From NCBI GenBank assembly GCA_964405235.1, contig CAYONG010000285.1:1552-65551 (forward strand): 64,000 nt of DNA, written 5' to 3'. Below the pieces are notes generated by a model. That model searched no databases, was not told where the DNA came from, and saw nothing but the letters and a program-made list of their open reading frames with translations. Of this stretch, positions 1 to 31,420 are shown one piece after another. Each line of letters starts with the position of its first letter. Position 1 is the stretch's first letter. A program made the translations under genes and the position numbers. This DNA comes from an uncultured bacterium (lineage in GTDB: Bacteria; Eisenbacteria; RBG-16-71-46).

Positions 1-1099
1 CCTGCGCACCTGGCTCACGCACTACGAGCAGGTGGGCTCGGTGGTGGACGAGGATGCCCTCACCCGCGCCGTACGGTTCATCCAGGGCAAGGTGTGGGTG
101 GATCGCCTCGAGGCCACGGTCGAGGCCCACATCATGGCTGCGGCGCGCGTGCGCGAGGCATGCGGCATCCCGGGCACCTCGGTCAAGACCGCGTGGCTGT
201 GCCGCGACAAGCCCTCGATGAAGGAGACGCTGCGGGCGGGCGGGGTCCGGTGCGCGCGCTCGACCGGCGCCGCCACAGCCGACCAGGCACGCGCGTTCGC
301 CGCCGAGACGGGGTATCCGCTCATCCTCAAGCCGCGCGATGCCGCCGGCGCCTCGGGGACCCACCGGGTGGACGACGCCGCGGCGCTGGAGGCGGTGCTC
401 TCCCAAACCGAGTTCGATCGGGGCGCGGCATTGGCGGTGGAGGAGTTCATCGAAGGTCACGAGGGATTCTACGACACGCTCGCGATCGGCGGCCGGGTGG
501 CCCACGACTTCGTCACCCACTACTACCCCAACGTGCTCGAAGCGATGCGTACGCGCTGGATCTCGCCCCAGTTCATCGCGACCAACCGCGTGGACACCTC
601 CCCCGCGTACCAGGAACTGCGTATCCTCGGGCAGAAGGTCATCGATCTGCTCGAGATCGGCACCTCGGCCACCCATATGGAGTGGTTCAGCGGATCGAAG
701 GGACTCTACTTCTCGGAGATCGGCTGCCGCCCGCCCGGCGTGCGCGCCTGGGACCTTTACTGCGCCGCCAACGAGATCGACCTGTACGTGGAGTGGGCGC
801 ATGCGGTGGTGCACGGACGAGCCTCGCAGAAGGTGTCGCGGCGCTTCTCGGCCGGGATCATCGCGCTGCGGCCCGACAAGGATGGACGCATCGCGGGATA
901 CGAAGGGGTGGATGCGATCCGCTCCCGGTACGGCGAGTGGATCCTTGATGCCCACCTGCCGCCGGCCGGCACGCCGACGCAGCCGGTCGAGGGCGGCTAC
1001 ATGGCCAACGCGTGGCTGCGCATGAAGCATCCCGACTATGACGAGCTGCGTCGCATGCTCGACGATGCGGGACGCACGATCAGGGTGCGCGCGACATGA
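1..1099 (+). CDS. ATP-grasp family amide-bond ligase (L-amino-acid-ligase / D-Ala-D-Ala-ligase-like); 5' end cut by window edge
   Basis: The frame is open from nt 2 with no stop before the GTG at 32, so the gene probably starts upstream of the window. Translation shows ATP-grasp hallmarks (GYPLILKPRDAAGASG, EEFIEGHEG, HMEWF...YFSEIGCRPPG). GC3 is high. The stop overlaps the next start (ATGA at 1096-1099). Confidence 0.8.
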   Translation, partial: LRTWLTHYEQVGSVVDEDALTRAVRFIQGKVWVDRLEATVEAHIMAAARVREACGIPGTSVKTAWLCRDKPSMKETLRAGGVRCARSTGAATADQARAFAAETGYPLILKPRDAAGASGTHRVDDAAALEAVLSQTEFDRGAALAVEEFIEGHEGFYDTLAIGGRVAHDFVTHYYPNVLEAMRTRWISPQFIATNRVDTSPAYQELRILGQKVIDLLEIGTSATHMEWFSGSKGLYFSEIGCRPPGVRAWDLYCAANEIDLYVEWAHAVVHGRASQKVSRRFSAGIIALRPDKDGRIAGYEGVDAIRSRYGEWILDAHLPPAGTPTQPVEGGYMANAWLRMKHPDYDELRRMLDDAGRTIRVRAT

Positions 1100-2034
1100 G
1101 CGGGCGCATCACATTGCTCGGACCGCAGCGCCTCGCACCGACCCTGGGCGTCACGCTCGAGTCGCTCGGTGTGCCGCCCGACGCCCCGGTCGCCACCGTG
1201 ACCGCGGGCTGGCAGGAGCGCGAGCCCGACGATGCCGAGCTCGACGCGCATCTGAGTGGACGGAGCCTGAACCTCAAGCTCTACCGCCGGGTCGAGCAGG
1301 TCTTCGAGCACGACCGCGAGTTCGAGGTCGGGTTCCGCGTCCGCCAGGAGACGTTGCGGCGACTGCAGGCCCTCTACCGGGTGCGACTCGACGCCGGGCT
1401 CACGGCCTGCAACGCACTGAACGCCATGCCGGGTGACGATGCGCCTCTGGTCGCCGAGCGGGAGGCGGCGCTCGAAGCGTTGCGCGATCTCGATCGCCGT
1501 CACCTCGACCGAGTGCGCCAGGTGCACGACGAGTTCGAGGCCCGCTGGCGGCCGGGCGAGCGCGAGGCGCTGGCGCAGGAACGCACCGCGGTGGGCCGCA
1601 TCCTGGGCGGGGTCGCCGCGCTCGCGATCGCGGGCGGACACGTCGCGGTGCTGCTCAATCGCCTGCGCCTGCTCGAAGTCGGCGCGCCGGCGCGGGCCAT
1701 GACCGTGGTGGCCTGGTCGGCGGGGGCGATGGCGGCGTCCGAACGCGTGGTGCTCTTCCACGACGACCCGCCGCACGGGCCGGGGCACCCCGAGACGTTC
1801 GAGATCGGACTGGGGCTCGCTCCCGGCGTGGTGCCGCTTCCGCTCGCCCGCCATCGGCTCCGCCTTGCCGACACGCGCCGCGTTGCGAACGCCGCGCGGC
1901 GCTTCGCCCCGAGCGACTGCATCCCGATGGACGAGCACGCGAGGCTCGACTGGGACGGCGCGCGCTGGATCCCCGCCGCCGGAACGCGCCGGCTCGGCGG
2001 CGACGGGAACGTGACGAGCTGGAGCGCGGCGTGA
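1096..2034 (+). CDS. Hypothetical protein, peptidase S51-like (cyanophycinase/peptidase E-like) fold suspected
   Basis: ATGA overlap upstream and GTGA overlap downstream. IAGGHVAVLLNRL and VVAWSAGAMAAS resemble the GG-N and G-x-SAGA nucleophile motifs of S51 peptidases. The family assignment is tentative. Confidence 0.55.
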   Translation: MSGRITLLGPQRLAPTLGVTLESLGVPPDAPVATVTAGWQEREPDDAELDAHLSGRSLNLKLYRRVEQVFEHDREFEVGFRVRQETLRRLQALYRVRLDAGLTACNALNAMPGDDAPLVAEREAALEALRDLDRRHLDRVRQVHDEFEARWRPGEREALAQERTAVGRILGGVAALAIAGGHVAVLLNRLRLLEVGAPARAMTVVAWSAGAMAASERVVLFHDDPPHGPGHPETFEIGLGLAPGVVPLPLARHRLRLADTRRVANAARRFAPSDCIPMDEHARLDWDGARWIPAAGTRRLGGDGNVTSWSAA

Positions 2035-3197
2035 GGTTCGCACCCGCAGAGGGGTTCATCCCCTCGCCCACGATCGAGGGCCTGCGCGCCCGCGGCACGC
2101 TGTCCGCCGCCGACCTCGAGGCGTTCCTCGCGGCCCACCGCTTTCCGCTGGTCGAGGGGGCGACTTCGACGTTCGTGTGGCACGGCGGGGCCGACGCGGT
2201 CCACCTGGTCCACATGATCTATGGACTGCCGACCCAGCAGCCGTTCACCCGTCTCGAGGGTACCGATCTGTGGTACCTGACGATCGAGCTGCCGACCCGC
2301 TCGCGGGTCGAGTACAAGATCGCGGTGGTGCAGGGCGAAAACTCGGCGCTGGTCGAGGATCCGCTCAACCCGCTCAGGACCCGCGATCCGTTCGGCGCCA
2401 ACTCGGTGGTCCAGGGGGACGGATACACGACGCCCGACTGGGTGGCGCACGACCCCGAGGCGCGACCGGGCACCTTGGAGGAGTTGGTGCTGCCGAGCGA
2501 GGGCCTCGGGCGCGACGCCCGCGTCACGCTCTACCTGCCGGCACGGTTCCGGCGCACGCGCCGCTACCCCTTGTTGCTGGTCCACGACGGCGGGGATTTC
2601 CTCGCCTACGGGGGGATGAAGACGGTGCTCGACAACCTCTTCCATCGGCTCGATGTGGCCGAGATGGTGGTCGCTTTCCTGCATCCGGGAGAGCGGCTGC
2701 TCGAGTACGCCGACCATCCCGGCCACGCGAGATTCCTGGCCGAGGAGCTGACCCCGCGACTGGAGCGCGACTGGCCACTGAGCGCGGATCCCGCCGAGCG
2801 CGGGATCATGGGGGCGAGCTTCGGCGCCGTCGCCGCGCTCGCAGCTGCCGCCCGCTACCCGGGCCGGTTCGGCCGGTTGCTCCTGATGTCGGGCTCCTTC
2901 GCCTTCACCGACATCGGGCCCAGCCGCCGGGGCCCGGCGTTCGAGCCGGTGGTAAGCTTCGTCAATGCCTTCCGCCGCTCGCCTGTGCGGGTTTCGGACC
3001 GGCTGTTTCTGTCGTGCGGGACCTACGAGTCGCTGATCTACGAGAACCGCTCGATGGTGCCGCTGTTCCAGTCCACCGGCATGGAGGTGCGCTACGTCGA
3101 GGCGCGCGACGGCCACAACTGGGAGAACTGGCGGGACCGTTTGCGCGAGGGGCTGTCGTGGCTCTTCCCCGGCCCGCTGTGGATGATCTATGAATAG
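2031..3197 (+). CDS. Esterase, enterochelin-esterase (Fes)-like: N-terminal Ig-like domain plus PF00756-type alpha/beta hydrolase
   Basis: GTG start overlaps the upstream stop (GTGA). Translation: FVWHG...WYLTIELP...EYKI N-domain, then LLLVHDGGD and the nucleophile elbow GASFGA. Confidence 0.75.
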   Translation: MRFAPAEGFIPSPTIEGLRARGTLSAADLEAFLAAHRFPLVEGATSTFVWHGGADAVHLVHMIYGLPTQQPFTRLEGTDLWYLTIELPTRSRVEYKIAVVQGENSALVEDPLNPLRTRDPFGANSVVQGDGYTTPDWVAHDPEARPGTLEELVLPSEGLGRDARVTLYLPARFRRTRRYPLLLVHDGGDFLAYGGMKTVLDNLFHRLDVAEMVVAFLHPGERLLEYADHPGHARFLAEELTPRLERDWPLSADPAERGIMGASFGAVAALAAAARYPGRFGRLLLMSGSFAFTDIGPSRRGPAFEPVVSFVNAFRRSPVRVSDRLFLSCGTYESLIYENRSMVPLFQSTGMEVRYVEARDGHNWENWRDRLREGLSWLFPGPLWMIYE

Positions 3198-3221
3198 CCG
3201 CTTCCGGCGCGGGGGAACATC

Positions 3222-4577
3222 ATGGCGCTCGTGACACGCAGGATCGGGCTGTCGCTGGGGGCCGATCTCTGCTGGCCGCTTTGCTTCGAAGCGATCATGC
3301 AGCGGCTCGACCTCAAGCTCAAGCTGGGCCGCGACACGGTGCGCTTCGATGTCGATCGGGTCACGATCGAGCCGTTCGACCTGCGCCAGCCGTGCGAGTA
3401 CGACCTGGTCGTGGATCGCCTCACCCACTGGTACGCGGTGAGCCGCGAGTGGATCAAGAAGGCGATCATCCTGGACGGCCTCTACGTGTTCAACAACCCG
3501 TGGTCCATCCAGTCGATGGAGAAGCACACCACCTACTGCGCGATGATGAAGCTGGGCCTGCCGGTGCCCGAGACCTGGCTGCTGCCGCCCAAGGCCTATG
3601 AGCCCAAGGCCGACCTGGAGCCTACCCTCAAGCGCTACGCGCGCCTGTTCGATCTGGCGGATGTCGGCACGCGGCTCGGCTACCCGATGTTCATGAAGCC
3701 CTATGACGGCGGCGGTTGGACCGGCGTCTCGCGCATCGTGGACGAGAAGTCGCTGCGCGCCGCTTACGAGGCGAGCGGCACGCATGTCATGCACCTGCAG
3801 CGCGCGGTCGAACCACACGACCTGTTCGTGCGCTGCATCGGCTTCGGCCCGCAGACGCGCGTGATCCGCTACGATCCGAGCGCCCCGCTGCACGACCGCT
3901 ATACCCTGGACCGCGACGTGCTGCCGGCCGAAGAGGCCGCGGTCATGCGCGACATGACCCTGACCATCAACGGCTTCTTCGGTTGGGACTTCAACTCCTG
4001 CGAGGCGCTGCGCCGCGAGGGGGTCTGGCATCCGATCGACTTCGCCAACGCCTGTCCCGATTCGCAGGTCACCTCGCTCCACTACCATTTCCCGTGGCTG
4101 GTGAAGGCGAATCTCAAGTGGTCCATCTTCTGCGCGGCCACGCGCCGCCCGATGCGACAGAACCTGGACTGGGCGCCCTACTACGACGCCGCGCGGCCCG
4201 AGTTGCCGTATCACGAGCGACTGCGTGCAACAGGGGCGGTGGCAGAACGACACTTCGACACCGCGCGCTTCGATGAGTTCTGCGCCCGGCACCTCCCCCA
4301 CCTCGACGAGGTGGCCTCCGATTTCTTCGCCACCGACGATGCGCGCGAGGCGGTGCGGCTCAAGGTCGAAGCGCTCTATCCCGCGCACGAGGTCGAGCGC
4401 TTCACCGAGTTGTTCTGGTCTCGCATCCAGCGCTGGCGCGATGAGGAGGGCTCAGCGACGGTCAGCGCCGCCGCCGCGATGGACGCGACCCCCGCGACCA
4501 CGGACGTCGCCGCCCCGACGTCCACATCCCCCACCCGCCGCGCGCCGCGCGGGCGGCGCCCGACGAGGACTGCATGA
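3222..4577 (+). CDS. ATP-grasp ligase (RimK / glutathione-synthetase-like), with disordered Ala/Thr/Pro-rich basic C-terminal tail
   Basis: GYPMFMKPYDGGGWTGVSRI nucleotide-binding segment and HPIDFANACPDS. GGGGGAA RBS-like stretch before the ATG. The stop overlaps the next start (ATGA at 4574-4577). Confidence 0.75.
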   Translation: MALVTRRIGLSLGADLCWPLCFEAIMQRLDLKLKLGRDTVRFDVDRVTIEPFDLRQPCEYDLVVDRLTHWYAVSREWIKKAIILDGLYVFNNPWSIQSMEKHTTYCAMMKLGLPVPETWLLPPKAYEPKADLEPTLKRYARLFDLADVGTRLGYPMFMKPYDGGGWTGVSRIVDEKSLRAAYEASGTHVMHLQRAVEPHDLFVRCIGFGPQTRVIRYDPSAPLHDRYTLDRDVLPAEEAAVMRDMTLTINGFFGWDFNSCEALRREGVWHPIDFANACPDSQVTSLHYHFPWLVKANLKWSIFCAATRRPMRQNLDWAPYYDAARPELPYHERLRATGAVAERHFDTARFDEFCARHLPHLDEVASDFFATDDAREAVRLKVEALYPAHEVERFTELFWSRIQRWRDEEGSATVSAAAAMDATPATTDVAAPTSTSPTRRAPRGRRPTRTA

Positions 4578-5299
4578 AAGAGACGACGCGCTGGCATTCC
4601 GACCGGCTGGGCGAGCAGGTGCAGGTGGTGCGCTGGGGCACGTTTGGCAAACCCGTGCTGCTCTTCCCCACCGCCGGCGGCGACGCCGAGGAGGTCGAGC
4701 GCTTCCACATGCTCGACGCGGTCGAGGAGCTGGTCAACGCCGGACGCGTCAAGGTCTACTCGTGCGACAGCGTCGCCGGCCAGTGGCTGGTGGCCGGGCA
4801 GGGTACGCCCCAGCAGCGCTGCCTGATCCAGAACCGGTTCCAGCAGTTCGTCTACCACGAGCTGGTGCCGGCGATCCGCACCGATTGCCAGAGCCCCGAG
4901 ATCGAGATCATCGCCACCGGCGCCTCGATCGGCGCGTTCCACGCGCTCGCCGTGCTGTGCCGCTACCCGGATGCGTTCTCGCACGCCGTCTGCATGAGCG
5001 GGACCTACGATATCGCGCGGTTCATCAAGGGGCCGGCGACCGAGGACCTGCGCGTCGCGACGCCGATCCACTTCCTGCCCGGGCTGAACGGCCCGACGCT
5101 CGAGCGCCTGCGGACGCGCTTCGCCATCCTCGCCTCGGGCGAGGGCCGCGCCGAGGACATGGGCGAGTCGTGGCGCGCGGCCCATGTGCTGGGGTCACGC
5201 GGGATCCCCAACCGGGTGGACCCGTGGGGCAAGGACTGGCATCACGACTGGCCCACCTGGCGGCGGATGCTGCCGCAGTATCTCGACGAGCTCACGTAG
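4574..5299 (+). CDS. Esterase / alpha-beta hydrolase (PF00756-like, single domain)
   Basis: PVLLFPTAGGDAEE and GASIGAFHA (G-x-S-x-G). Translationally coupled to the upstream ATP-grasp gene. Confidence 0.7.
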   Translation: MKETTRWHSDRLGEQVQVVRWGTFGKPVLLFPTAGGDAEEVERFHMLDAVEELVNAGRVKVYSCDSVAGQWLVAGQGTPQQRCLIQNRFQQFVYHELVPAIRTDCQSPEIEIIATGASIGAFHALAVLCRYPDAFSHAVCMSGTYDIARFIKGPATEDLRVATPIHFLPGLNGPTLERLRTRFAILASGEGRAEDMGESWRAAHVLGSRGIPNRVDPWGKDWHHDWPTWRRMLPQYLDELT

Positions 5300-5315
5300 A
5301 GGCGGTGAGCGACCC

Positions 5316-7229
5316 ATGGGCCTACAGAAGACCGAGACCGAGTTCGGAGGCGAGCGGCGGCGCGAGTTCATGCGCTCGATCCTGCGCGATCTGAAGGCGC
5401 TCGAGCACATGCTGAACACCGGCATGATCGAGGAGGGCATGACCAGGGTCGGGGCCGAACAGGAGATGTTCCTGATCGACCAGAGCGGCCACCCGGTGCC
5501 GGCGGCGCTCATCGCGCTCGAGGCGGCGAAGAGCCCGCACTTCACCACCGAGCTGGGCCTGTTCCAGCTCGAGTTGAACCTCGATCCGCAGATGCTCGCC
5601 GGCCACTGCTTCCGGCGCATGGAGGCGCAGCTCGCCGAGCGGCTCACCCACCTCGGCGACGTGCTCGCCCCGCACGGCGTGGGGTTCGTGCTCACCGGCA
5701 TCCTGCCGACGCTGCGCAAGTCGGACCTCGGGATCGAGAACATGGTGCCCAATCCGCGCTACCAGGCACTCAATCGCGCCATGACCGAGATGCGCGGCGC
5801 CGACTACGAGATCGCCATCAAGGGAGTCGACGACCTGCGCATCAAGCACGACTCGGTGATGGTCGAGGCGTGCAACTCGAGCTTCCAGGTCCACCTGCAG
5901 GTCGGAGCGAAGGACTTCGCCCGACTCTACAACCTGGCGCAGGCGCTGGCGGGCCCGGTGCTGGCGGCCGCGACCAACTCTCCTCTGCTGTTCGGTCGCC
6001 GCCTGTGGGCCGAGACCCGGATCGCCCTGTTCCAGCAGGCGGTGGATACGCGCAGCCCCGAGCACCAGCGCGACGTGAGCGCCCGCGTCACCTTCGGCGA
6101 CCGCTGGCTGCGCCGCTCGGTCATCGAGCTCTTCCGCGAGGACATCGCGCGCTTCCGCACCCTGGTCGGGATCGACGCCGGCGAGGACCCGCTCGCCGCG
6201 CTCGAGAAGGGCTCGGTGCCGCAGCTCAAGGCGCTGCGGCTCCACAACGGCACCGTCTACCGCTGGAACCGGGGCTGCTACGGCATCACCGACGGCAAAG
6301 CGCACCTGAGGATAGAGAACCGCGTGCTGCCCTCGGGGCCGAGCGTCGCCGACGAGATGGCCAACGCCGTGTTCTGGATCGGGCTGATGATGGGGTTGGG
6401 CGCGAAGGTCGAGGACATCACGCAGCGGATGGCGTTCGCGCACGCCAAGCACAACTTTCTGTCCGCCGCCCGCCAGGGGCTGGCGGCCCAGTTCACCTGG
6501 CTGGACGGCGAGGAGATCCCGGCGCCCCAGCTCATCACCGAGCACCTGCTGCCGATCGCCGACGAGGGTCTGGCGGCCGCCGGCGTGGACGCGAGCGACC
6601 GCGAGCGCTACCTCGGGATCCTCGAGCGCCGGGTGCGCTCGGGGCGCACCGGCTCGCGCTGGCTGCTGTTCTCGCTCGCCGCGATGAAGGACGAGGGCAC
6701 GCTCGGCGAACGCCTCAACGCGCTGACCATGGCCACCGTCGCCCGCCAGCGCGCGGGGCTGCCGGTGTCGCAGTGGGAGCCCGCCGTGCGCGCCGAAGGC
6801 GGCGGATGGAAGCACAACTACGTCAAGGTCGAGCAGTTCATGACCACCGATCTCTACACCGTGCACGAGGACGACCCGATCGAGCTGGCCGCCCACCTCA
6901 TGGACTGGCATCGCATCCGCCACGTCCCGGTGGAGGACCGCGAGCACCGGCTGGTCGGCCTGGTGTCGTATCGGGTCCTGCTCCGCCTGCTCTCCGACCA
7001 CAGCCCCGAGGGTAAGGCGGCGGCCCTGATCCCGGTCGGCGAAGTCATGCGGCGCGATCCGGTCGTCATCGGCCCCGAGACGACCACCCGTCGCGCCATC
7101 GCCATCATGCGCGAACGCCGCGTCGGATGCCTGCCGGTCGTGCAGGGCAAGACCCTGGTCGGGATCGTGACCGAGCACGACTTCACCGAGATCGCCGGGC
7201 AGCTGCTGGAAGAAAAGCTCGGGCACTGA
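5316..7229 (+). CDS. Carboxylate-amine ligase of the glutamate-cysteine ligase family 2 (GCS2) fused to a C-terminal CBS-domain pair
   Basis: I chose the ATG at 5316 (MGLQKTE...) over the track start at 5184, which overlaps the esterase gene. The GCS2-like body has GAEQEMFLID and FQVHLQV. The C-terminal about 130 aa carry two CBS-like repeats (FMTTDLYTV...HVPVED...LVGLVS and VMRRDPVVI...CLPVVQGKTLVGIVTEHD). Confidence 0.75.
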   Translation: MGLQKTETEFGGERRREFMRSILRDLKALEHMLNTGMIEEGMTRVGAEQEMFLIDQSGHPVPAALIALEAAKSPHFTTELGLFQLELNLDPQMLAGHCFRRMEAQLAERLTHLGDVLAPHGVGFVLTGILPTLRKSDLGIENMVPNPRYQALNRAMTEMRGADYEIAIKGVDDLRIKHDSVMVEACNSSFQVHLQVGAKDFARLYNLAQALAGPVLAAATNSPLLFGRRLWAETRIALFQQAVDTRSPEHQRDVSARVTFGDRWLRRSVIELFREDIARFRTLVGIDAGEDPLAALEKGSVPQLKALRLHNGTVYRWNRGCYGITDGKAHLRIENRVLPSGPSVADEMANAVFWIGLMMGLGAKVEDITQRMAFAHAKHNFLSAARQGLAAQFTWLDGEEIPAPQLITEHLLPIADEGLAAAGVDASDRERYLGILERRVRSGRTGSRWLLFSLAAMKDEGTLGERLNALTMATVARQRAGLPVSQWEPAVRAEGGGWKHNYVKVEQFMTTDLYTVHEDDPIELAAHLMDWHRIRHVPVEDREHRLVGLVSYRVLLRLLSDHSPEGKAAALIPVGEVMRRDPVVIGPETTTRRAIAIMRERRVGCLPVVQGKTLVGIVTEHDFTEIAGQLLEEKLGH

Positions 7230-7232
7230 GCG

Positions 7233-8180
7233 ATGACGGACGCTTCCACCGACGAGTCCACAGCGCTGCCGCGCGTCATCGCTCGACTGCGCGGCGAGGC
7301 GCCGGGACCCACGCTAATCGTGATCGGGGGCCTGCACGGCAACGAGCCCTCAGGGCTCGGGGCGATGCGGAGCGTGGCGGCGGCGCTCGACTCCGAGGGA
7401 CTCGCCCCACGTGGCGAACTGGTGATGCTCGTTGGAAACGTGAAAGCTCTCGCGCAGGGCCGGCGCTTCATCGACCACGACCTGAACCGCGGCTGGACTC
7501 ATGAACGCCTCGCCGCCCTGCGCGCCTCGGGGACGATGGACGCCGAGGACCGCGAGCAGCTGGAGCTGGCGGACGCTCTGGAGTCGGCGCTGGCGTCCAC
7601 GCGCGGCCCGGCCTACCTCCTCGACCTCCACGCGACTTCGGCCGAGGGGATCCCGTTCGCTATGTGTCGCGATTCCGACGAGGCGCGCAGCTTCGCCGCC
7701 GCGTTCCCGCTGACCATGGTGCTGGGGCTGCTCGAGGCGGTGGACGGCACGCTGGCGAGTTTCCTGGGCTCGCGCTGCGTCGCCGTGGCGGTCGAGGGCG
7801 GCCAAAACTCACATCCGGCGTCAGTACGGAATCACGAGGCCGTGGTCTGGTTGTCGCTCGCGGCCACCGGGATCGTCGAGGAGAGTCACGTGCCGGGCCT
7901 GGCCGAGCATCGCGCGGCGCTGGCCCGGTCGCGGGGCGATCTCCCGCGCGTGCTCCACGTCCACCAACGGCACGCCATCGCCCCGGGGGACAGTTTCCGC
8001 ATGGAGCCGGGCTTCGCGAACATCCAGCGGGTCGCCGCGAACGAGCTACTCGCCCGCGACCGCGCCGGGGACATCCGGGCGCCCGAACCCGGATTCGTCC
8101 TGCTGCCGCTTTACCAGGCGATGGGCGACGACGGGTTCTTCCTGGGACGCGCGGTGGCGGAGGAGGCGCGGGTCTCGTAG
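7233..8180 (+). CDS. Succinylglutamate desuccinylase / aspartoacylase (AstE/AspA) family zinc amidohydrolase
   Basis: LIVIGGLHGNEPSG zinc-binding H-x-x-E motif near the N-terminus and DLHA further on. A 3-nt gap after the GCS2-CBS gene makes it the last gene of the operon. Confidence 0.75.
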   Translation: MTDASTDESTALPRVIARLRGEAPGPTLIVIGGLHGNEPSGLGAMRSVAAALDSEGLAPRGELVMLVGNVKALAQGRRFIDHDLNRGWTHERLAALRASGTMDAEDREQLELADALESALASTRGPAYLLDLHATSAEGIPFAMCRDSDEARSFAAAFPLTMVLGLLEAVDGTLASFLGSRCVAVAVEGGQNSHPASVRNHEAVVWLSLAATGIVEESHVPGLAEHRAALARSRGDLPRVLHVHQRHAIAPGDSFRMEPGFANIQRVAANELLARDRAGDIRAPEPGFVLLPLYQAMGDDGFFLGRAVAEEARVS

Positions 8181-8203: not shown

Positions 8204-8226
8204 GGGAGCGCCACGCGGTGCGTGAT
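8204..8226. repeat. 23-nt conserved intergenic motif, copy 1 (GGGAGCGCCACGCGGTGCGTGAT) with palindromic core CACGC-GGT-GCGTG
   Basis: 22 of 23 nt are identical to 22300-22322. Both copies are followed by ACCGCTT(T)C, after a 7-nt insertion in this copy. Confidence 0.5.
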
Positions 8227-8354
8227 TTTGTTCACCGCTTTCTCCGGCGCCGCCCTCGCGAGCGTCACCTTGCGGTTCCCTTGAGTCCCTGTGACCAGGT
8301 CCCCGGGAGGACTCTCACCTCCCCGTCAGTGCCCAAGCTGGGCGTACCAACACG

Positions 8355-8414: not shown

Positions 8415-11400
8415 TCACTGGAGCCAGACGATGCGGCGATCGATCCGCACACCCCCCGTGGTCAGGCGGGTGAAGTAGATCCCCGGCCGCGCGTTGCTGC
8501 CGCCGTCCATTGCGCCGTCCCAGCGCAGCGAGTGCCAGCCAGCATCGCGGTCGCCGCTGGTCAACGTGCGAATGCGACGGCCCGAGACGTCGAACACCTC
8601 GACCACGACCCTTGCGGCCCCTGGGAGTCCCAGCGCAAACGCCGCCTCCTCCCGTGCCGGGTTTGCGCCGAGTAGCAACAGCTCGGGCGACGACGGCGGT
8701 TCCTCCATCGACACCAACCCGCTGCCCTTCTTGGGCTTCTTTACCTTTATGGTATCCGCGCCCGAGAACGGCTTGGCGCCGACCATGCCGGTCAGCCGCA
8801 CCTGAACCTGGTCGCCCAGCTGGAACTTGGCGTCGAGCACGGTGCGGCTGAACATCAATTTCATCTCCTGAACGCCGTCAGAGTCACGATCGGCCATGAC
8901 GAACCCGGGCAAGGCCTGCACGGTTTCATTGAGCCGCACGCTGAGCGGATCGATGTTGGCCGACAGGAACGGGAGCGGCAGCTCGATGGACACACTTGCG
9001 GTCTGATCCTTAGCGCCGAGGTGATAGATCTTGGGATCGAAGAAGATCTCCGCCACTGGCGGCGGCAGCTCGAGCGGACCGTAGATCCGGGCGGTGCCCG
9101 ACCCTTCGTTCGCCACCACCATGCGGGGGCCCGCCGGCTCCACGGCCACCCCGGCCGGTGACAGGTCGGTGGCCTTGCGCTCCACGAGCTCGACCGTCAC
9201 CTCGGAGCCGGGGATGACGCTGGCGCCCGCACTCCCGGAGGTGAAGCCGATCTTGAACCGCAGGACCTCGTTGTTGGACGTCGTCACGTAGGCCGAGCCC
9301 CCGTCGGTGGTGACCACCACGCCCGTGCCGCCCGAACCGATCGAGGTCTTCGACACCACCCGGTGCTTGGTGGCGCTCTGGGGGACGATGTCGACAATCA
9401 GCAGCTCGCCATCCACAGTCAGCACCGCCACAAATCGGGTGCCGTCGGTCGAGATCGCGACTCCGCTGCCCCCCGAGCCGGTCGCGGTCTTGGATACCAC
9501 CCGCTGGTCGGGCGGCACGCCAGGCCTGAGATCCAGCTCGATCAGCTGTCCATCCCGGGTCAGCACGTAGCCACGGGTGCCGTCGGTGGTGACCACCACG
9601 CCCGTGCCGCCCGAGCCGGTCGTCGTCTTGGCAACGACCCGGTTGTAGGTGCCGTTCTCGGGATCGGCGTCGATGAAGCTGACGGTGCCCTGGTCGTCGG
9701 CATGGACCGCCACGATCTGGGGGCCGATCGGGTTGACCGCCACGTCCACGGGCTCCGGATCCACCGGGATGCGCGCGATCTCCCGATTGAATGTGGCCGA
9801 CAGCGGGTTCACGTCGATCACGCTCAGGTCGTTGCTGCTGGTGTTCGCCACGTACGCCTGCTGGATTCCGGGGACGATCGCGATGCCCTGTGGCCGAAGG
9901 CCCACGGTGATGCTCCTGAGCAGCGCCGGCGGGTCGAGCCGGATGGCGCTCACCGTGCTGGTGGCGGGATTGGTGATGTATGCATGGCGCCCGTCCTCGG
10001 TGATGGCGATGTCGCGCGCGCCTGGAGAGATCCGGATGTCGTCGATGATCTCGCCGAGCACCGCCGGAGCCGGCAGAGTGTATTGAACCGGGTTGCTGGT
10101 CACCGCCCCGACCGTCACGGTGACCGGCCCGCTCGCCGCGCCCTGGGGAACGTTGACTCGAAGCTCTTCGAAGTTGGAGGTGAGCACATCCGCCAGCACG
10201 CCGTTGAAGCTCACGATGTTCTGGGCCGGCACCAGGCTGAACCCCTGGCCCGCGAGCACCACCGGAGTCGCGATCGGCGCCGAGGGGGGCATGATGGACT
10301 GCACCGAGAGCGGCGGCTCGGCCTGAACCGTGAACGTGGCGCTGGCCTCGGCCGTCGTGGCCTGGCCCTCCACATCGAGCGTGCCGGCCAGGACTTTGAT
10401 GGTGCAGATCTTGCCGAATGGCAGGCTCTGGCTGGGTCGGAGCACCACGACACGGCCGTCCTCGAGGAACTCGATCGAGCGGCCGAAGATCGCCCCGTTG
10501 ACCAACAGCTGGATCTTGCCGGTGTTCAGGCTGGCCGTATCGATGCGCTGGTTGAAGCGTACGAACGCCGCGGTGCCGATGCTGATGTCGGTGGCGCCGT
10601 TGGCCGGACCGACCGCCACCACCTGCGGAACGATCTGGGTGTCGTCGCCGGTAACCTCGGCGGACACCATGAGGCTGGCGCCAGGCACGCCCAGTGCCGT
10701 GATCGTCACGGTCTCGGTTCCCGGCGTTCCCGGAAGCGTCCAGCTCACCCGGGCTTCACCGTTGGCGTCGGTGACGCGGTGGACCACGGTTCCCTGCCCA
10801 TCGAGCGAGCCGAGCCCCGAGCCCAGCTCGAAGCGCACCACCACCCCGACCTGCGGTCTTCCGATTTCGTCGGCGACCCGCACGCCGGTCGGAAGCGGAA
10901 GCGTGGTTCCGGAGGCGCCGGCCTGGTTGGCCCCCGAGACCAGCGCCATCTGACTCGCTTCGCTGAGGCTGGTGAGCGCGACGACTCCCGTTCCCGCCCC
11001 GGTGTTCCACTCCGCCACCCACAGCTGGCGGCCATCATGGGAGCGGGCGAGGGCGGCCGACGTCCGTCCGATTCCCGCGGTCGTGACCGTCGGCGGCACG
11101 ACCGCGGCCTCGATCTTCACCACATCGTTGCACGTCGCACAGCCGCCCAAGATGCCGTCGCCATCCGGCGCCGAAAGCAACTGAGAGAGCGTGACGCCAA
11201 CCGGCAGCGGATTGCCGAAATACAGCTCGGCGCCAATCGTGCCGGATGCCTCCAGATTCCAGATCGCGAGGTTGCCGTCGGCGAATGCCCCCACCGCACG
11301 GCGGCCGTTGGCCATGACCGCAATCGAGTGGATCGCGGCGGTGCCCCGCGTCGTGGTGGTGCCGACCAGAGTGCGATTGTCGAGATCCACGATCGCGGCG

Positions 11401-30709: not shown

Positions 30710-31420
30710 TCAGCCCCTTCGATACTCCACCAGCCGCATCCATGGCCGCGAGCGGTCGAGCCCGTCGTAGGACTCGAGCACAATGCCCGACTCGTCGGCC
30801 CAAAATGTGTAGCCCCCGTCCTCGCTTTGCGACGGCAGTGTCACGACGTAGCGTCCGGCCGGCACTGGACCGTGCGGGGTCTCAAATGTGCCCTTCTCAA
30901 CGCAGCGGTAGAGCATCCGATCCGGGGTCACCGCCATGATCGGCGGGCCCACACGCAGCACCGGGAACTCGTGCTCGCCGCCCACCTGAAAATCGCGGCG
31001 CGCAAGGATGAGCGTGTTGAAGAGGTGCGTGGCGTAATCCACCTCGCAGTAGTCCGGGAAGTCACCCTCCTGTTCCCGAAAATGGCCGCCGTACTCGATG
31101 CGCACGCGCCACATCGGACCGTCGGCGGCGTGGGTCGCCCGCAGCGTGCGCTCGCCCACCGTCCACAGCACCTCGAGCCCGGTGATCCGCCACTCGCGGG
31201 TGAGCGTCACGCGATACGCGTGGCGGTTCGGTAACGGGTGCGGAGGCACGGTCTCCTGCTCGCCGCTCACGACCATGCCATCGGCGGAACCCTCGATGCG
31301 CCAGCGCTCCTCACCGCACTCGACCCCGGCGTGGTAGAGGACGTAGCGGCCTTGGAGCCTGGGGAGCCCGGGGATCGCCGTCCCCGCCTCGCCTGTGGAA
31401 TCGATCGCGGGAGACGTCAC
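30710..31420 (-). CDS. Hypothetical protein (possible DUF1089/glycolipid-binding-like beta-rich protein)
   Basis: The GTG start at 31420 overlaps the upstream stop (GTGA). Only the C-terminal 236 aa of track ORF 30710..32257 have coding-like composition. The rest overlaps the nitrilase-family gene in another frame. Confidence 0.5.
   Translation of the reverse strand: MTSPAIDSTGEAGTAIPGLPRLQGRYVLYHAGVECGEERWRIEGSADGMVVSGEQETVPPHPLPNRHAYRVTLTREWRITGLEVLWTVGERTLRATHAADGPMWRVRIEYGGHFREQEGDFPDYCEVDYATHLFNTLILARRDFQVGGEHEFPVLRVGPPIMAVTPDRMLYRCVEKGTFETPHGPVPAGRYVVTLPSQSEDGGYTFWADESGIVLESYDGLDRSRPWMRLVEYRRG

What the first reader, a model, noticed from the sequence alone, without database searches (positions are those of the whole stretch)
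1..8180. Seven-gene coupled operon interleaving three amide-bond ligases with four hydrolases: a possible non-ribosomal, non-NRPS peptide or pseudopeptide pathway
The gene junctions are ATGA (1096), GTGA (2031), a 24-nt gap, ATGA (4574), a 16-nt gap and a 3-nt gap. The operon encodes two different ATP-grasp ligases and one GCS2 carboxylate-amine ligase. These are interleaved with an S51-like (cyanophycinase/peptidase E-like) protein, two PF00756 esterases (one with a Fes-type N-terminal domain) and an AstE/AspA Zn-amidohydrolase. ATP-grasp and GCS2 enzymes both make amide bonds through acyl-phosphate intermediates. S51, AstE/AspA and Fes-type enzymes hydrolyse beta-aspartyl, N-acyl-amino-acid or ester bonds. 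This combination suggests synthesis and controlled turnover of a small Asp/Glu-rich peptide, a cyanophycin-like polymer or a depsipeptide. It does not suggest any standard primary pathway. The operon start lies outside the window.
Basis: partly seen in the sequence, partly recalled or inferred. Interest (0 to 1): 0.7.

Follow-up and report, generated by a model that had tools for sequence, protein, structure and literature searches.

The report
Glycogen-linked multi-ligase and hydrolase operon
The seven genes are real and belong to a larger, uncharacterised gene module found in at least eight bacterial phyla, which joins glycogen synthase to five ATP-dependent bond-forming enzymes and four bond-cutting enzymes and so points to an unknown amino-acid or peptide chemistry tied to glycogen storage.

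Summary
Observation confirmed. All six junctions and all seven domain assignments hold.

The operon is only part of a larger unit:
- In the two nearest relatives (about 90% identical), a bona fide glycogen synthase gene (glgA) is the first gene, and its stop overlaps the start of gene 1.
- Two more paralogous ATP-grasp ligase genes and glgB lie divergently upstream.
- Across 83 related loci from about eight phyla the genes stay together although their order is shuffled.
- glgA, glgB, glgC, glgP or malQ recur beside them. In one locus the module sits inside a complete glycogen locus.

None of the ligases is an orthologue of Ddl, PurK/T, RimK, LysX, GshB, EgtA or CphA. Gene 4 has no Pfam family, yet its members share about 66% identity across phyla.

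New details:
- Gene 3 has the layout of a carbohydrate esterase behind a starch-binding-like module.
- Gene 3 ends in a conserved Tyr-Glu tail that occurs only where the S51-like gene 2 is present.
- AstE/AspA and FGase amidohydrolases replace each other.

The product is unknown. My best guess (about 0.3) is a reversible, ester-anchored amino-acid or peptide decoration of glycogen. A free cyanophycin-like peptide reserve is nearly as likely.

The parts
2..1099 (+). g1: L-amino-acid-ligase-type ATP-grasp. It is cut at the 5' end by the window edge; about 42 codons are missing by comparison with the 407-aa orthologue in L081.
   Evidence: Pfam CPSase_L_D2, ATP-grasp and weak LAL_C2. The best PDB match of the full-length orthologue is an L-amino acid ligase, 4wd3, E 4e-11. 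It is paralogous (35-37% identity) to two further ligases, graspA and graspB, encoded upstream in relatives.
1096..2034 (+). g2: S51-fold (cyanophycinase / peptidase E-like) protein.
   Evidence: AlphaFold pLDDT 91.6. Foldseek top hits are cyanophycinase 3en0 and 7uqw and peptidase E. No Pfam hit for this copy. 34 of 120 homologues carry PF03575.
1279..1608 (+). About 110-residue helical hairpin inserted in the S51 fold of g2 (residues 62-171).
   Evidence: Secondary structure of the model: helices H62-72, H74-110, H116-151 and H157-171. Solved S51 structures are about 200-265 residues long.
1717..1719 (+). Codon of g2 Ser208 in the motif W-S-A-G-A-M, the nucleophile-elbow position of S51.
   Evidence: Ser in 46 of 46 close homologues. 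Across 64 loci it is Ser in 53, Ala in 8 and Cys in 3.
1843..1845 (+). Codon 250 of g2: CTC (Leu), where relatives have His (inferred CAC), the presumed triad histidine.
   Evidence: His in 42 of 46 close homologues, Leu only here. In Myxococcota-type loci the position is Asp.
2031..3197 (+). g3: two-domain alpha/beta-hydrolase esterase of the PF00756 (CAZy CE1) type.
   Evidence: PF00756 at 83 bits and Enterochelin_N at 28 bits. The G-A-S-F-G nucleophile motif and His362 are at least 95% conserved. PDB matches are Fes 2b20 (E 2e-11) and the 386-388-aa ferulic acid esterases 6rzn and 8bbp, matched over the catalytic domain at equivalent positions; that these carry an N-terminal CBM48 is from my own recollection.
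2142..2441 (+). N-terminal beta-sandwich domain of g3 (residues 38-137): Fes-N / E-set type, with a motif-level resemblance to starch-binding modules.
   Evidence: Hits among 14 family members: Enterochelin_N 14 of 14, CBM_20 12 of 14 (best E 5e-5), CBM_48 5 of 14. The top PDB hit of the domain profile is the glucoamylase starch-binding domain 1ac0, E 7e-4. The invariant Trp and Lys align with W563 and K578 of that domain.
3189..3194 (+). The conserved C-terminal Tyr-Glu of g3 (...GPLWMIYE-stop).
   Evidence: 65 of 73 g3 orthologues end in YE. The tail is present only where g2 is present: 59 loci have both, 6 have neither, 2 have a variant tail (VTYM) with g2, and none has the tail without g2. 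Fisher p is about 1e-6 or lower.
3222..4577 (+). g4: new, very highly conserved ATP-grasp ligase with a C-terminal helical domain and a non-conserved low-complexity tail.
   Evidence: No Pfam family for it or for any of its 120 best homologues. Model pLDDT 81; top Foldseek hits are ArgX, LysX, Ddl and VanA. Invariant residues include K159, the D162-GGG-W166 loop, E261, D273 and N276 (D256 is at least 90% conserved). Median pairwise identity is 66.5% across phyla. More than 5,900 homologues, all named 'hypothetical'.
4574..5299 (+). g5: short PF00756-type alpha/beta hydrolase.
   Evidence: PF00756 at 37 bits. The G-A-S-I-G motif and His224 are at least 95% conserved. In 39 of 67 loci the g4-g5 junction is an overlap of 4 nt or 1 nt.
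5316..7229 (+). g6: GCS2-type carboxylate-amine ligase fused to a C-terminal CBS pair.
   Evidence: GCS2 at 46.7 bits and CBS at 95 bits. Scores for EgtA and YbdK are far below their cut-offs. No PDB sequence match for the ligase domain. 141 positions are at least 95% conserved, including E48 and E50.
6816..7211 (+). CBS-domain pair of g6 (residues 501-632), a candidate adenylate or ligand sensor.
   Evidence: Pfam CBS, two stretches. PDB matches are AcuB-type and other CBS-pair proteins. The sensing role is inferred from family knowledge.
7233..8180 (+). g7: AstE/AspA-family zinc amidohydrolase.
   Evidence: AstE_AspA_cat at 68 bits. The H35-x-x-E38 ... H133 zinc motif and E188 are conserved. 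The best PDB match is AstE 1yw6, E 6e-6. In 13 Myxococcota-type loci it is replaced by an FGase gene and the two never co-occur.
8208..8234 (+). Terminator-like hairpin plus T-run marking the 3' end of the operon.
   Evidence: 2 overlapping sites found against 0.2 expected in shuffles.

Best explanation
The seven window genes are the downstream part of a conserved cytoplasmic module that belongs to glycogen metabolism.

Full form of the module, as seen in the nearest relatives: glgA-g1-g2-g3-g4-g5-g6-g7 on one strand, and graspB-graspA-glgB divergently upstream.

Components:
- Five ATP-dependent carboxylate ligases: three paralogous L-amino-acid-ligase-type ATP-grasps (g1, graspA, graspB), the new ArgX/Ddl/VanA-like ATP-grasp g4, and the GCS2-CBS protein g6.
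- Four hydrolases: two CE1-type esterases (g3, g5), an S51-fold protein (g2) and an N-acyl-Glu/Asp-type amidohydrolase (g7, or FGase in its place).

Mechanism I commit to. It is inferred, not shown.
1. g4 activates an amino-acid carboxylate as an acyl-phosphate and esterifies it to a hydroxyl of the alpha-glucan that GlgA and GlgB are building.
2. The other ligases extend this anchor by amide bonds into a short acidic, Glu/Asp-ended side chain.
3. On mobilisation, the CBM-bearing esterase g3 and esterase g5 strip the adduct from the glucan.
4. g2 and g7 (or FGase) then break it down to amino acids.
5. g2 docks on, or trims, the conserved Tyr-Glu tail of g3.
6. The CBS pair of g6 gates the ATP-consuming steps by energy state.

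The result would be a reversibly amino-acid- or peptide-decorated glycogen. The link to glycogen genes and the enzyme classes are shown. The acceptor, the bond types and the residues are inferred.
For: Glycogen link:
- GlgA passes its curated cut-off (TIGR02095: 546 bits against 328) and its stop overlaps the g1 start in L081.
- glgA is adjacent to g1 and co-oriented in 26 loci, median gap 1.5 nt.
- glgB, glgC, glgP or a DUF3417-type phosphorylase lie within 10 kb in Binatia-like, Eisenbacteria, Actinomycetota, Acidobacteriota, Planctomycetota and Alphaproteobacteria loci.
- Three of three independently chosen GlgA homologues (58-62% identity) sit in the module. In L089 the module lies inside a full malQ-GH57-glgC-glgB-glgP locus.
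- By my rough estimate a random 20-kb stretch would hold a glg gene in under 1% of cases. It was observed in about half of the loci.
- Gene order is shuffled between phyla while the linkage is kept.

Ester chemistry:
- The near-universal core is esterase - g4 - esterase (72, 82 and 68 of 83 loci).
- PF00756 corresponds to CAZy family CE1, whose members are esterases, thioesterases and sugar acyltransferases (my own knowledge).
- g3 matches 386-388-aa ferulic acid esterases over the catalytic domain at equivalent positions (their CBM48-CE1 layout is my recollection). Its N-domain shows recurrent sub-threshold CBM_20/CBM_48 similarity, with the starch-binding Trp and Lys conserved.
- The structural neighbours of g4 include VanA, which makes an ester bond (my own knowledge).

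Peptide and Glu/Asp element:
- There are three LAL-type paralogues, and a PGM1-like peptide ligase stands beside g1 in Woeseiaceae loci that lack g6.
- AstE/AspA and FGase are mutually exclusive alternatives: 14 loci against 13, none with both.
- g2 has the S51 fold.
- A Glu/Asp/dicarboxylate-type symporter gene is inserted between g3 and g4 in one locus.

Cytoplasmic, reversible and energy-gated:
- No signal peptides or transmembrane segments, and no conserved transporter or precursor ORF.
- Ligases and hydrolases share one operon.
- g6 carries a CBS pair.
Against: - No ATP-grasp enzyme is known to acylate a sugar hydroxyl, and no amino-acylated bacterial glycogen has been reported. A 2024 review of prokaryotic alpha-glucan metabolism does not mention ATP-grasp enzymes, esterases or cyanophycin at all.
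- The strongest Pfam match of the g3 N-domain is the Fes N-domain, not a CBM. The CBM_20/48 matches are below Pfam cut-offs, and hhalign against the CBM48 domains of GlgX and GlgB is insignificant.
- Gene linkage to glg genes could reflect co-regulation of two separate reserve pools rather than shared chemistry.
- About half of the loci show no glg gene in the fetched flanks, though many of those contigs are short.
- The S51 triad is not conserved.
- Nothing identifies the substrates.
Confidence: 0.3

Rival explanations
1. A free intracellular product. The ligases build, stepwise through acyl-phosphates, a soluble oligopeptide or a cyanophycin-like poly-amide or depsipeptide reserve or stress solute rich in Glu/Asp. 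It is co-regulated with glycogen (carbon and nitrogen reserves made and mobilised together) but is not attached to it. The hydrolases remobilise it. This is essentially the first reader's idea.
For: - Five ligases and four hydrolases share one cytoplasmic operon.
- g2 has the cyanophycinase fold.
- The AstE/AspA family includes the cyanophycin dipeptidase CphZ (PMC9974463).
- AstE and FGase alternate, which points to N-acyl-Glu/Asp bonds.
- Several LAL paralogues acting in sequence is the pattern of small-peptide pathways such as RizA/RizB (my own knowledge). A PGM1-like ligase occurs in some loci.
- A CBS pair would fit energy gating.
Against: - It does not explain why the module is embedded in, and translationally coupled to, glycogen genes in so many phyla.
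- It does not explain why two CE1-type esterases, one with a CBM-like domain, form the invariant core with g4.
- CphA scores are 24-40 bits against a cut-off of 850, and no Mur-ligase-like gene was seen in the annotated loci.
- g7 has no match to CphZ at E up to 1.
- The S51 triad is degenerate in many members.
Confidence: 0.27
2. Protein-tail modification. An ATP-grasp ligase adds amino acids to a protein C-terminus, in the manner of RimK on ribosomal protein S6, LysX/ArgX on LysW, or tubulin tyrosine ligase. The obvious target is the conserved Tyr-Glu end of the esterase g3. g2 and g7/FGase would act as erasers, so that the activity or location of glycogen-associated enzymes is switched.
For: - The top structural matches of g4 are ArgX and LysX, and LysX-type enzymes act on a protein C-terminal Glu (the mechanism is my own knowledge).
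- g4 lies 24 nt downstream of g3 in the window; the median gap across loci is 27 nt.
- 65 of 73 g3 proteins end exactly in -YE.
- The tail co-occurs strictly with g2.
- The very high conservation of g4 fits a macromolecular partner.
- AstE-type enzymes cleave N-acyl-Glu, which resembles a gamma-glutamyl isopeptide (inference).
Against: - g4, g1 and graspA/B persist in loci whose g3 lacks the tail: L014, L019, L034, L051, L085 and L049. The tail therefore tracks g2, not any ligase.
- Five ligases are more than a tail switch needs.
- No LysW-like carrier ORF is conserved in the loci.
Confidence: 0.15
3. A glutathione-like low-molecular-weight thiol system. GCS2 makes a gamma-Glu-Cys-type bond, ATP-grasps extend it, and the PF00756 enzymes act as S-acyl-thiol thioesterases in the manner of S-formylglutathione hydrolase. 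The system would detoxify carbonyl stress that accompanies carbon overflow and glycogen synthesis.
For: - g6 is a GCS2-family protein.
- PF00756 includes S-formylglutathione hydrolases, and g3 gives a weak fghA hit (E 0.0012).
- g2 has a GATase1-like fold.
- A link between carbon overflow and methylglyoxal is my own inference.
Against: - g6 is found in only 32 of 83 loci, and Woeseiaceae loci that lack it carry an unrelated PGM1-like ligase, whereas the esterases are core.
- EgtA, YbdK and fghA scores are far below their cut-offs.
- No reductase, transferase or glyoxalase genes recur nearby.
Confidence: 0.08
4. A secreted secondary metabolite or siderophore pathway: LAL-type ligases plus a Fes-like esterase for uptake and release.
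For: - LAL-type ATP-grasps are typical of peptide antibiotics, and the best PDB match of g1 is an L-amino acid ligase.
- The best PDB match of g3 is enterochelin esterase.
Against: - No exporter, TonB receptor, tailoring enzyme or resistance gene is conserved.
- All the proteins look cytoplasmic.
- The Fes equivalog score is 97 against a cut-off of 222.
- Sequence conservation across phyla (66% for g4) is far higher than usual for secondary metabolism.
- The module is linked to glycogen genes.
Confidence: 0.03

Closest known systems
Cyanophycin metabolism (CphA1 synthetase, CphB/CphE cyanophycinase, CphZ / isoaspartyl dipeptidases)
   Same: - Amide bonds are made without ribosome or NRPS, through acyl-phosphates on an ATP-grasp domain.
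- An S51-fold enzyme and an AstE/AspA-family zinc enzyme are on the degradative side (PMC9974463).
- Synthesis and breakdown genes are clustered.
- It is an intracellular reserve.
   Different: - There is no CphA orthologue (24-40 bits against a cut-off of 850) and no Mur-ligase-like domain was seen.
- There are five separate ligases of three types.
- Two CE1-type esterases form the core.
- g7 is not CphZ-like.
- The S51 triad is degenerate in many members.
- The module is embedded in glycogen gene clusters.
LysW/LysX-ArgX amino-group carrier system and RimK-S6 glutamylation
   Same: - The nearest solved structures to g4 are ArgX and LysX.
- A protein ending in a conserved C-terminal Glu (g3) is encoded just upstream of g4.
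- Amidohydrolases that could release or trim are encoded alongside.
   Different: - Scores for RimK and LysX are 20 bits against cut-offs of 143-276.
- The conserved tail co-varies with the S51-like g2, not with any ligase.
- No small carrier protein is present.
- g4 has an extra C-terminal helical domain.
CBM48-CE1 carbohydrate esterases (for example the ferulic acid esterases 6rzn and 8bbp) and enterochelin esterase Fes
   Same: g3 has a similar length and two-domain layout (an N-terminal beta-sandwich plus a PF00756 catalytic domain) and an intact Ser and His.
   Different: - g3 is cytoplasmic and is encoded with ATP-dependent ligases and glycogen genes rather than in a polysaccharide-utilisation or siderophore locus.
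- The Fes equivalog cut-off is not met.
- It has a unique conserved -VYE C-terminus.
Classical bacterial glycogen operon (glgBXCAP)
   Same: It contains a bona fide ADP-glucose-type GlgA and often GlgB, GlgC, GlgP and MalQ.
   Different: - Nine or so extra genes for ligases and hydrolases are spliced between the glycogen genes.
- The module-associated GlgAs form their own subgroup: median 52% identity to each other across phyla, but 35-41% to E. coli GlgA.
Linked amidoligase operons catalogued by comparative genomics (Iyer, Abhiman, Burroughs, Aravind 2009, Mol Biosyst; as summarised in PMC4431377)
   Same: The general theme is operons that combine several ATP-grasp and COOH-NH2 (GCS2) ligases acting successively to make peptide-derived metabolites, storage polypeptides or cofactors.
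   Different: I could not read the 2009 paper, so I cannot say whether this particular module is described there. No paper found by full-text search links such ligases to glgA.

Membership tests
ATP-grasp superfamily (g1, g4) | ATP-grasp fold | tested here: met
   g1: Pfam CPSase_L_D2 at 30.4 bits (cut-off 19.8) and ATP-grasp at 27.3 (cut-off 27). g4: Foldseek matches to ArgX, Ddl and VanA at E 4e-10 to 1e-9, probability 1.00.
ATP-grasp superfamily (g4) | Nucleotide- and Mg-binding residues: the Lys of the F-x-K-P strand, the Gly-rich loop, and the acidic/Asn Mg ligands | tested here: inconclusive
   K159 aligns with the Ddl 'FVKP' Lys. K159, D162-G-G-G-W166, E261, D273 and N276 are invariant in 46 sequences, and D256 is at least 90% conserved. 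The Mg-ligand assignment rests on motif position only. The usual E-x-N motif reads D-F-A-N here.
Primary-metabolism ATP-grasp enzymes (Ddl, PurK/PurT, RimK, LysX, CPSase, biotin carboxylase) | Score at or above the curated NCBIfam cut-off | tested here: not met
   g1: best Ddl 30 bits against 243, PurT 18 against 502, RimK 21 against 143, LysX 31 against 276. g4: Ddl 21 against 262, RimK 20 against 143. graspA and graspB are likewise far below their cut-offs.
L-amino acid ligases (g1, graspA, graspB) | LAL-specific C-terminal domain, and closest similarity to characterised LALs | tested here: inconclusive
   LAL_C2 scores 17.9 bits, below its cut-off of 29.4. The best PDB matches are LALs 4wd3 (E 4e-11) and BacD (E 9e-8). 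BacD and DdaF equivalog scores are far below their cut-offs.
Peptidase S51 (cyanophycinase / peptidase E) (g2) | S51 fold | tested here: met
   The top 17 Foldseek PDB hits are all cyanophycinase, pseudo-CphB or peptidase E, probability 0.99-1.00. PF03575 is recorded for 34 of 120 homologues, but not for the window protein.
Peptidase S51 (g2) | Ser-His-Glu catalytic triad | tested here: not met
   The window copy has Ser208 but Leu at the His250 position. Across 64 loci Ser208 is Ser 53, Ala 8, Cys 3, and position 250 is His 26, Asp 26. The triad assignment is by spacing to cyanophycinase (Ser132 / His174), not by structural superposition.
PF00756 esterase / CAZy CE1 (g3, g5) | Pfam gathering score, G-x-S-x-G nucleophile and catalytic His | tested here: met
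   g3 scores 83 bits and g5 37.4 bits against a cut-off of 22. G261-A-S263-F-G265 and H362 in g3, and G116-A-S118-I-G120 and H224 in g5, are at least 95% conserved.
Enterochelin esterase Fes (g3) | NCBIfam equivalog NF007758 cut-off, and a siderophore gene context | tested here: not met
   97.4 bits against a cut-off of 222. No siderophore synthesis or uptake genes appear in any annotated locus.
Starch/glycogen-binding modules CBM20 / CBM48 (g3 N-domain) | Significant profile match and conserved glucan-binding aromatic and Lys residues | tested here: inconclusive
   CBM_20 hits in 12 of 14 members (best E 5e-5) and CBM_48 in 5 of 14; for the window copy the CBM_20 score (17.2) is below the 23.3 cut-off. 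Glucoamylase SBD 1ac0 at E 7e-4, with the Trp and Lys aligned. Enterochelin_N is the stronger match (2e-8). hhalign to the CBM48 of GlgX and GlgB gives E 0.17-0.46.
GCS2 carboxylate-amine ligases (g6) | Pfam PF04107 gathering score | tested here: met
   46.7 bits against a cut-off of 21.
Glutamate-cysteine ligases (EgtA, YbdK, cyanobacterial-type GshA) (g6) | Curated equivalog or subfamily cut-off | tested here: not met
   EgtA 22.7 against 370.8; YbdK family 18.9 against 176.4. No PDB sequence match for residues 1-495 at E up to 1.
AstE/AspA zinc amidohydrolases (g7) | Pfam PF24827 score and the H-x-x-E...H zinc site with a catalytic Glu | tested here: met
   68.2 bits against a cut-off of 25. 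H35, E38, H133 and E188 are at least 95% conserved in 17 orthologues.
AstE, aspartoacylase, DoeB or CphZ orthologue (g7) | Equivalog cut-off, or closest similarity to that enzyme | tested here: not met
   Aspartoacylase 50.8 against 180; AstE 35.5 against 305.65. Among solved structures AstE 1yw6 is best at E 6e-6. No chain named CphZ appears among the hits at E up to 1.
Cyanophycin synthetase system | A CphA1-type synthetase (ATP-grasp G domain plus Mur-ligase-like M domain) | tested here: not met
   TIGR02068 scores 24.5-40.6 bits against a cut-off of 850. No Mur-ligase domain appears in any annotated locus.
Graspetide / RiPP ATP-grasp systems | A conserved precursor-peptide ORF next to the ligase | tested here: not met
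   Clustering of all 30-130-aa ORFs within 2.5 kb of the module in about 80 loci gave only antisense shadows of conserved genes. The intergenic gaps in the window are 3-24 nt.
Bacterial glycogen (glg) gene cluster | A bona fide GlgA / GlgB / GlgC / GlgP in the same operon or locus | tested here: met
   In relatives: GlgA TIGR02095 at 546 bits (cut-off 328) and GlgB NF003811 at 959 bits (cut-off 741). There is operon coupling between glgA and g1, and L089 holds a full glg locus around the module. In the window itself the glgA position lies beyond the 5' edge, so this cannot be tested there.
Known anti-phage defence systems | A match to a PADLOC model | tested here: not met
   No family at E up to 0.001 for any of the seven proteins.

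The most novel reading that the evidence does not exclude
In these bacteria glycogen is not a plain glucan. It is reversibly decorated, through ester bonds, with amino acids or short acidic peptides, giving a hybrid carbon-nitrogen reserve polymer ('peptidyl-glycogen').
- g4 would then be the first ATP-grasp ligase known to acylate a sugar hydroxyl.
- The CBM-bearing CE1 esterase g3 would be its eraser.
- The S51-derived g2 would be an adaptor that reads the Tyr-Glu tail of g3.
Probability: 0.25. Interest if true: 0.9.

Novelty: new variant of a known kind. Interest (0 to 1): 0.72.

Why it matters
- Bacterial glycogen metabolism is regarded as a closed, well-understood set of enzymes. A recent comprehensive review does not mention ATP-grasp ligases, esterases or any peptide chemistry. 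Here a module of about ten genes is spliced into glycogen operons in at least eight phyla, many of them abundant soil, sediment and marine lineages.
- At its centre is a protein family with no Pfam model (g4: more than 5,900 homologues, about 66% identity across phyla, all named 'hypothetical').
- Whatever the product is, it implies a new biochemical layer on carbon storage. It could be decorated glycogen, a glycogen-coupled nitrogen reserve, or a tail-switch on glycogen enzymes.
- The question is directly testable, because all the parts are soluble enzymes that can be expressed together.
- It also offers new ATP-grasp and GCS2 ligase specificities for biocatalysis, and a probable case of a peptidase fold reused as a tail-binding adaptor.

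Tried and rejected
1. Extending the contig: exact-sequence look-ups of the window's g2 and g4 found no recorded contig. I used the about 90% identical loci L001 and L081 instead.
2. The 2009 amidoligase survey (PMC3268129, doi 10.1039/b917682a) is not held. Prior description there cannot be excluded.
3. Full-text searches combining ATP-grasp with glycogen synthase, cyanophycinase, esterase, FGase or AstE found nothing relevant.
4. A 669-aa ORF upstream of g1 in L001 was rejected as a high-GC shadow. The real gene is glgA, in another frame.
5. Search for a conserved precursor or carrier small ORF: only antisense shadows were found.
6. Sigma-54 promoter search: every hit fell inside conserved g3 coding sequence, so none is a promoter.
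7. PADLOC defence models: no hits.
8. g7 as CphZ: no match at E up to 1.
9. g3 N-domain against Fes-N and the CBM48 of GlgX and GlgB by hhalign: too weak to discriminate.
10. Profile search of 1.8 billion representative proteins with g4 gave 1,553 relatives. Ten candidates that looked like fusions showed only an esterase-g4 fusion fragment and no informative new domain.
11. g4 profile against PDB sequences: only marginal Ddl hits (E about 1e-3). The g6 ligase domain had no PDB sequence hit.
12. The window downstream of 8180 (a giant secreted M10/Big_5 protein, a CHAT-TPR protein, amidohydrolases) is unrelated to the module.

Full report
**1. The observation**

The window (about 70% G+C) carries seven same-strand ORFs.

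| Gene | Coordinates | Junction to the next gene |
|---|---|---|
| g1 | 2..1099 (cut by the window edge) | ATGA overlap at 1096 |
| g2 | 1096..2034 | GTGA overlap at 2031 |
| g3 | 2031..3197 | 24-nt gap |
| g4 | 3222..4577 | ATGA overlap at 4574 |
| g5 | 4574..5299 | 16-nt gap |
| g6 | 5316..7229 | 3-nt gap |
| g7 | 7233..8180 | terminator-like site |

A terminator-like hairpin with a T-run follows at 8208-8234. The next gene is a convergent, unrelated 2,653-aa secreted protein.

The domain assignments are correct:
- g1 is an ATP-grasp.
- g3 is a PF00756 esterase with a Fes-type N-domain.
- g5 is PF00756.
- g7 is AstE/AspA.

The two proteins without Pfam hits were resolved by structure prediction:
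- g2 (pLDDT 91.6) has the S51 cyanophycinase/peptidase E fold, with a helical hairpin of about 110 residues inserted.
- g4 (pLDDT 81) is an ATP-grasp closest to ArgX, LysX, Ddl and VanA, with an extra C-terminal helical domain.

**2.

*Orthology to primary enzymes.* All ATP-grasp and GCS2 proteins score far below the curated cut-offs for Ddl, PurK/T, RimK, LysX, CPSase, CphA, EgtA and YbdK.

*Co-conservation.* A scan of one genome per species found 321 stretches encoding a g4 relative. The best 80 loci come from these groups:
- Binatia-like
- Myxococcota
- Eisenbacteria
- Planctomycetota
- Acidobacteriota
- Gammaproteobacteria (Woeseiaceae)
- Alphaproteobacteria
- Actinomycetota

Together with loci fetched by exact protein look-up, 83 non-redundant loci were compared. 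The gene counts are as follows:

| Gene | Loci with it (of 83) |
|---|---|
| g4 | 82 |
| g3 | 72 |
| g5 | 68 |
| g2 | 61 |
| g1 | 46 |
| g6 | 32 |
| g7 | 14 |

g1-g5 are collinear in 31 loci. Many contigs are short, so these counts are lower bounds. Junctions are overlapping or nearly abutting throughout. Both tests therefore pass. The operon is real, selected, and not a standard pathway.

**3. The unit is larger than the window shows**

The closest relatives are L001 (a Binatia MAG) and L081, with 72-95% amino-acid identity for the seven genes. In them a gene that passes the curated GlgA model sits immediately upstream, and its stop overlaps the g1 start (TIGR02095: 546 bits against a cut-off of 328). 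Divergently upstream lie two more ATP-grasp genes, graspB and graspA, which are paralogues of g1 at 35-37% identity. Beyond them lies a bona fide glgB.

The window begins about 126 nt inside g1, so these genes fall just off its edge. The full module thus has five ligases: three LAL-type ATP-grasps, g4 and GCS2-CBS.

glgA is adjacent to g1 and co-oriented in 26 loci, with a median gap of 1.5 nt.

Gene order differs between phyla. In Woeseiaceae it is graspB-g2-g3-g4-g5, then graspA on the other strand, then glgA-g1. Planctomycetota show other permutations. The set stays together regardless.

**4. The glycogen link is robust**

Beyond glgA, other glycogen genes lie within 10 kb of the module:
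- glgB: L001, L005/L084, L034, L078, L081, L090.
- glgC: L046, L070.
- E. coli-type glgP: L014.
- DUF3417-type alpha-glucan phosphorylase: L034, L063, L064, L070, L078.

As an independent test I searched with the module's GlgA. I then looked up three homologues of 58-62% identity that I had not seen before. All three sit in the module. In L089 the module is embedded in a complete glycogen locus: malQ, GH57, glgC, glgB and glgP.

Module-associated GlgAs share a median of 52% identity across phyla but only 35-41% with E. coli GlgA.

A random 20-kb stretch would hold a glg gene in under 1% of cases. That figure is my own rough estimate from genome size and the number of glg loci. A glg gene was observed in about half of the loci.

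**5. Clues to the chemistry**

(a) *Ester bonds.* The nearly universal core is esterase - g4 - esterase. PF00756 corresponds to CAZy family CE1, whose members are esterases, thioesterases and sugar acyltransferases rather than amidases (my own knowledge). This suggests that the g4 product contains an ester or thioester bond. VanA, one of g4's structural neighbours, makes an ester.

(b) *A carbohydrate-esterase layout.* After Fes, the next PDB matches of g3 include ferulic acid esterases of 386-388 aa, matched over the catalytic domain at equivalent positions; I recall these as CBM48-CE1 enzymes. Its N-domain matches Enterochelin_N in 14 of 14 members, CBM_20 in 12 of 14 (best E 5e-5) and CBM_48 in 5 of 14. 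The best PDB hit of the domain profile is the glucoamylase starch-binding domain (E 7e-4). The invariant Trp and Lys align with W563 and K578, which are starch-binding residues from my own knowledge. Direct hhalign comparisons were too weak to decide, so glucan binding is a lead and not a result.

(c) *N-acyl-Glu/Asp bonds.* g7 (AstE/AspA) is present in 14 loci. In 13 Myxococcota-type loci an FGase-family amidohydrolase sits directly upstream of glgA instead. The two never co-occur. Characterised members of both families hydrolyse N-acyl-Glu or N-acyl-Asp bonds, so such a bond is probably part of the cycle.

(d) *Alternative fifth ligase.* In Woeseiaceae loci, which lack g6, a PGM1-like peptide-ligase ATP-grasp stands beside g1.

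(e) *A transporter.* One Eisenbacteria locus has a Na+:dicarboxylate (Glu/Asp-type) symporter gene inserted between g3 and g4. This is a single case.

(f) *Location.* All proteins lack signal peptides and membrane segments. No transporter, precursor-peptide or carrier ORF is conserved. The chemistry is therefore intracellular, and it has built-in reversal.

(g) *Regulation.* The CBS pair on g6 is a plausible adenylate or ligand sensor, from family knowledge.

**6. A new internal correlation**

g3 ends in a conserved ...GP(L)W(M)(V/I)YE followed directly by the stop codon. 65 of 73 orthologues end in YE.

| | g2 present | g2 absent |
|---|---|---|
| g3 ends in YE | 59 | 0 |
| g3 lacks the YE tail | 2 (variant tail VTYM) | 6 |

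These counts cover loci with upstream sequence available. The one apparent exception, L076, turned out to have a divergent g2. The six loci without the tail are exactly those without the S51-like g2: L014, L019, L034, L051, L049 and L085. They come from at least three lineages. Fisher p is about 2e-6 or lower, without correction for phylogeny.

g4 and the other ligases persist in the tail-less loci, so the tail tracks g2 and not a ligase.

The presumed S51 triad in g2 is not conserved. The nucleophile position is Ser in 53 loci, Ala in 8 and Cys in 3. The His position is His in 26 and Asp in 26. The window copy has Leu there (CTC where relatives encode His).

My inference is that g2 docks on, or trims, the C-terminal Tyr-Glu of g3. 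In many lineages it may be a pseudo-peptidase adaptor rather than a hydrolase.

**7. Explanation**

*Shown:*
- The enzyme classes.
- The extended gene set.
- Conservation and reshuffling of the set across phyla.
- Operon coupling to glgA and recurrent glg neighbours.
- The AstE/FGase alternation.
- The g2/tail correlation.
- Cytoplasmic location.

*Inferred:* everything about substrates.

The reading that covers most of the facts is a reversible amino-acid or peptide decoration of the growing alpha-glucan (confidence about 0.3):
1. g4 makes the ester anchor.
2. The LAL paralogues and g6 (or the PGM1-like ligase) extend it by amide bonds to a Glu/Asp-ended chain.
3. g3 and g5 strip it from the glucan.
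4. g2 and g7 (or FGase) finish the breakdown.

Under that reading the product is only co-regulated with glycogen. It fits the S51 and AstE-family parallels with cyanophycinase and CphZ (PMC9974463). It leaves the CE1 core and the tight glg linkage unexplained. There is also no CphA-like synthetase, and g7 is not CphZ-like.

The remaining rivals are:
- Protein-tail modification, about 0.15.
- A glutathione-like thiol with thioesterases, about 0.08.
- A secreted metabolite or siderophore, about 0.03.

**8. Comparison with what is known, and novelty**

The parts belong to known superfamilies. The theme of linked amidoligases with peptidases is established (PMC4431377). I therefore rate this a new variant of a known kind rather than categorically new. 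Three things appear new:
- Integration of such a module into glycogen operons.
- The g4 family itself, which has no Pfam model and whose 120 best homologues are all unnamed or 'hypothetical'.
- The g2/g3-tail relationship.

I found no description in the searchable literature. I could not read the 2009 amidoligase survey, which is the most likely place for a prior mention.

**9. Verdict**

The finding is real and more interesting than it looked from the window alone. The product and mechanism remain open, but the parts are soluble enzymes and the question is readily testable.

Noticed in passing
window 1843-1845 (g2 codon 250): The window's g2 has Leu (CTC) at the presumed catalytic His position, where 42 of 46 close homologues have His. 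This would be a single-base difference from CAC. It could be a real inactivating change or a MAG assembly or sequencing error.
   Followed up: partly
window 3189-3197, and g3 orthologues in loci L001-L090: The esterase g3 ends in a conserved ...GPLW(M)VYE-stop (65 of 73). This tail is present only where the S51-like g2 is present (59 both, 6 neither, 2 variant, 0 tail-only). This suggests that g2 binds or processes the tail.
   Followed up: yes
window 8415-16376 (- strand): A 2,653-aa ORF convergent on the operon carries matrixin (M10), Big_5, TIG, lactonase-propeller, CarboxypepD_reg and FlgD_ig domains. It is probably a giant secreted or surface protease and appears unrelated to the operon.
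   Followed up: partly
window 17248-20250 (+ strand): A 1,000-aa TPR-CHAT protein (a caspase-like CHAT domain behind a long TPR array). Function here is unknown.
   Followed up: no
window 27429-30694 (- strand): Two adjacent Amidohydro_1/3 family genes (611 aa and 477 aa), followed by a gene with a glycolipid-binding domain at 30710-32257.
   Followed up: no
L082 / L083, 5541-6219: A PIN/RHH toxin-antitoxin pair is inserted between glgA and g1 in two near-identical genomes. In L082 g2 is split into two ORFs (159 and 187 aa), while in L083 it is one intact 368-aa gene. L082 therefore probably carries a frameshift or pseudogene.
   Followed up: no
L010, 8540-9844: A sodium:dicarboxylate symporter family gene (Glu/Asp/C4-dicarboxylate type) is inserted between g3 and g4 in one Eisenbacteria MAG.
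   Followed up: partly
L008, L016, L024, L026, L027, L029, L031, L037, L039, L045, L054, L059, L067 (directly upstream of glgA): An FGase-family (N-formylglutamate amidohydrolase, PF05013) gene precedes glgA by about 20 nt in Myxococcota-type loci. It is mutually exclusive with the AstE/AspA gene g7.
   Followed up: yes
L050, L061, L065, L079 (downstream of g1; for example L061 15907-17511): Woeseiaceae loci carry a PGM1-like ATP-grasp (PGM1_C, PreAtp-grasp) where other lineages have the GCS2-CBS ligase. This may be non-orthologous replacement of the fifth ligase.
   Followed up: partly
L089, 12683-21464: The module sits inside a complete glycogen locus (malQ GH77, GH57, glgC, glgB, glgP). A LEA_2 (desiccation-associated) gene lies next to g1, and a phasin-like PHB_acc gene is nearby.
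   Followed up: no
window 4455-4574 (g4 residues about 412-451): The C-terminal 40 or so residues of g4 form a low-complexity Ala/Thr/Pro/Arg-rich tail. It is predicted to be disordered (pLDDT below 50) and is not conserved among orthologues.
   Followed up: no
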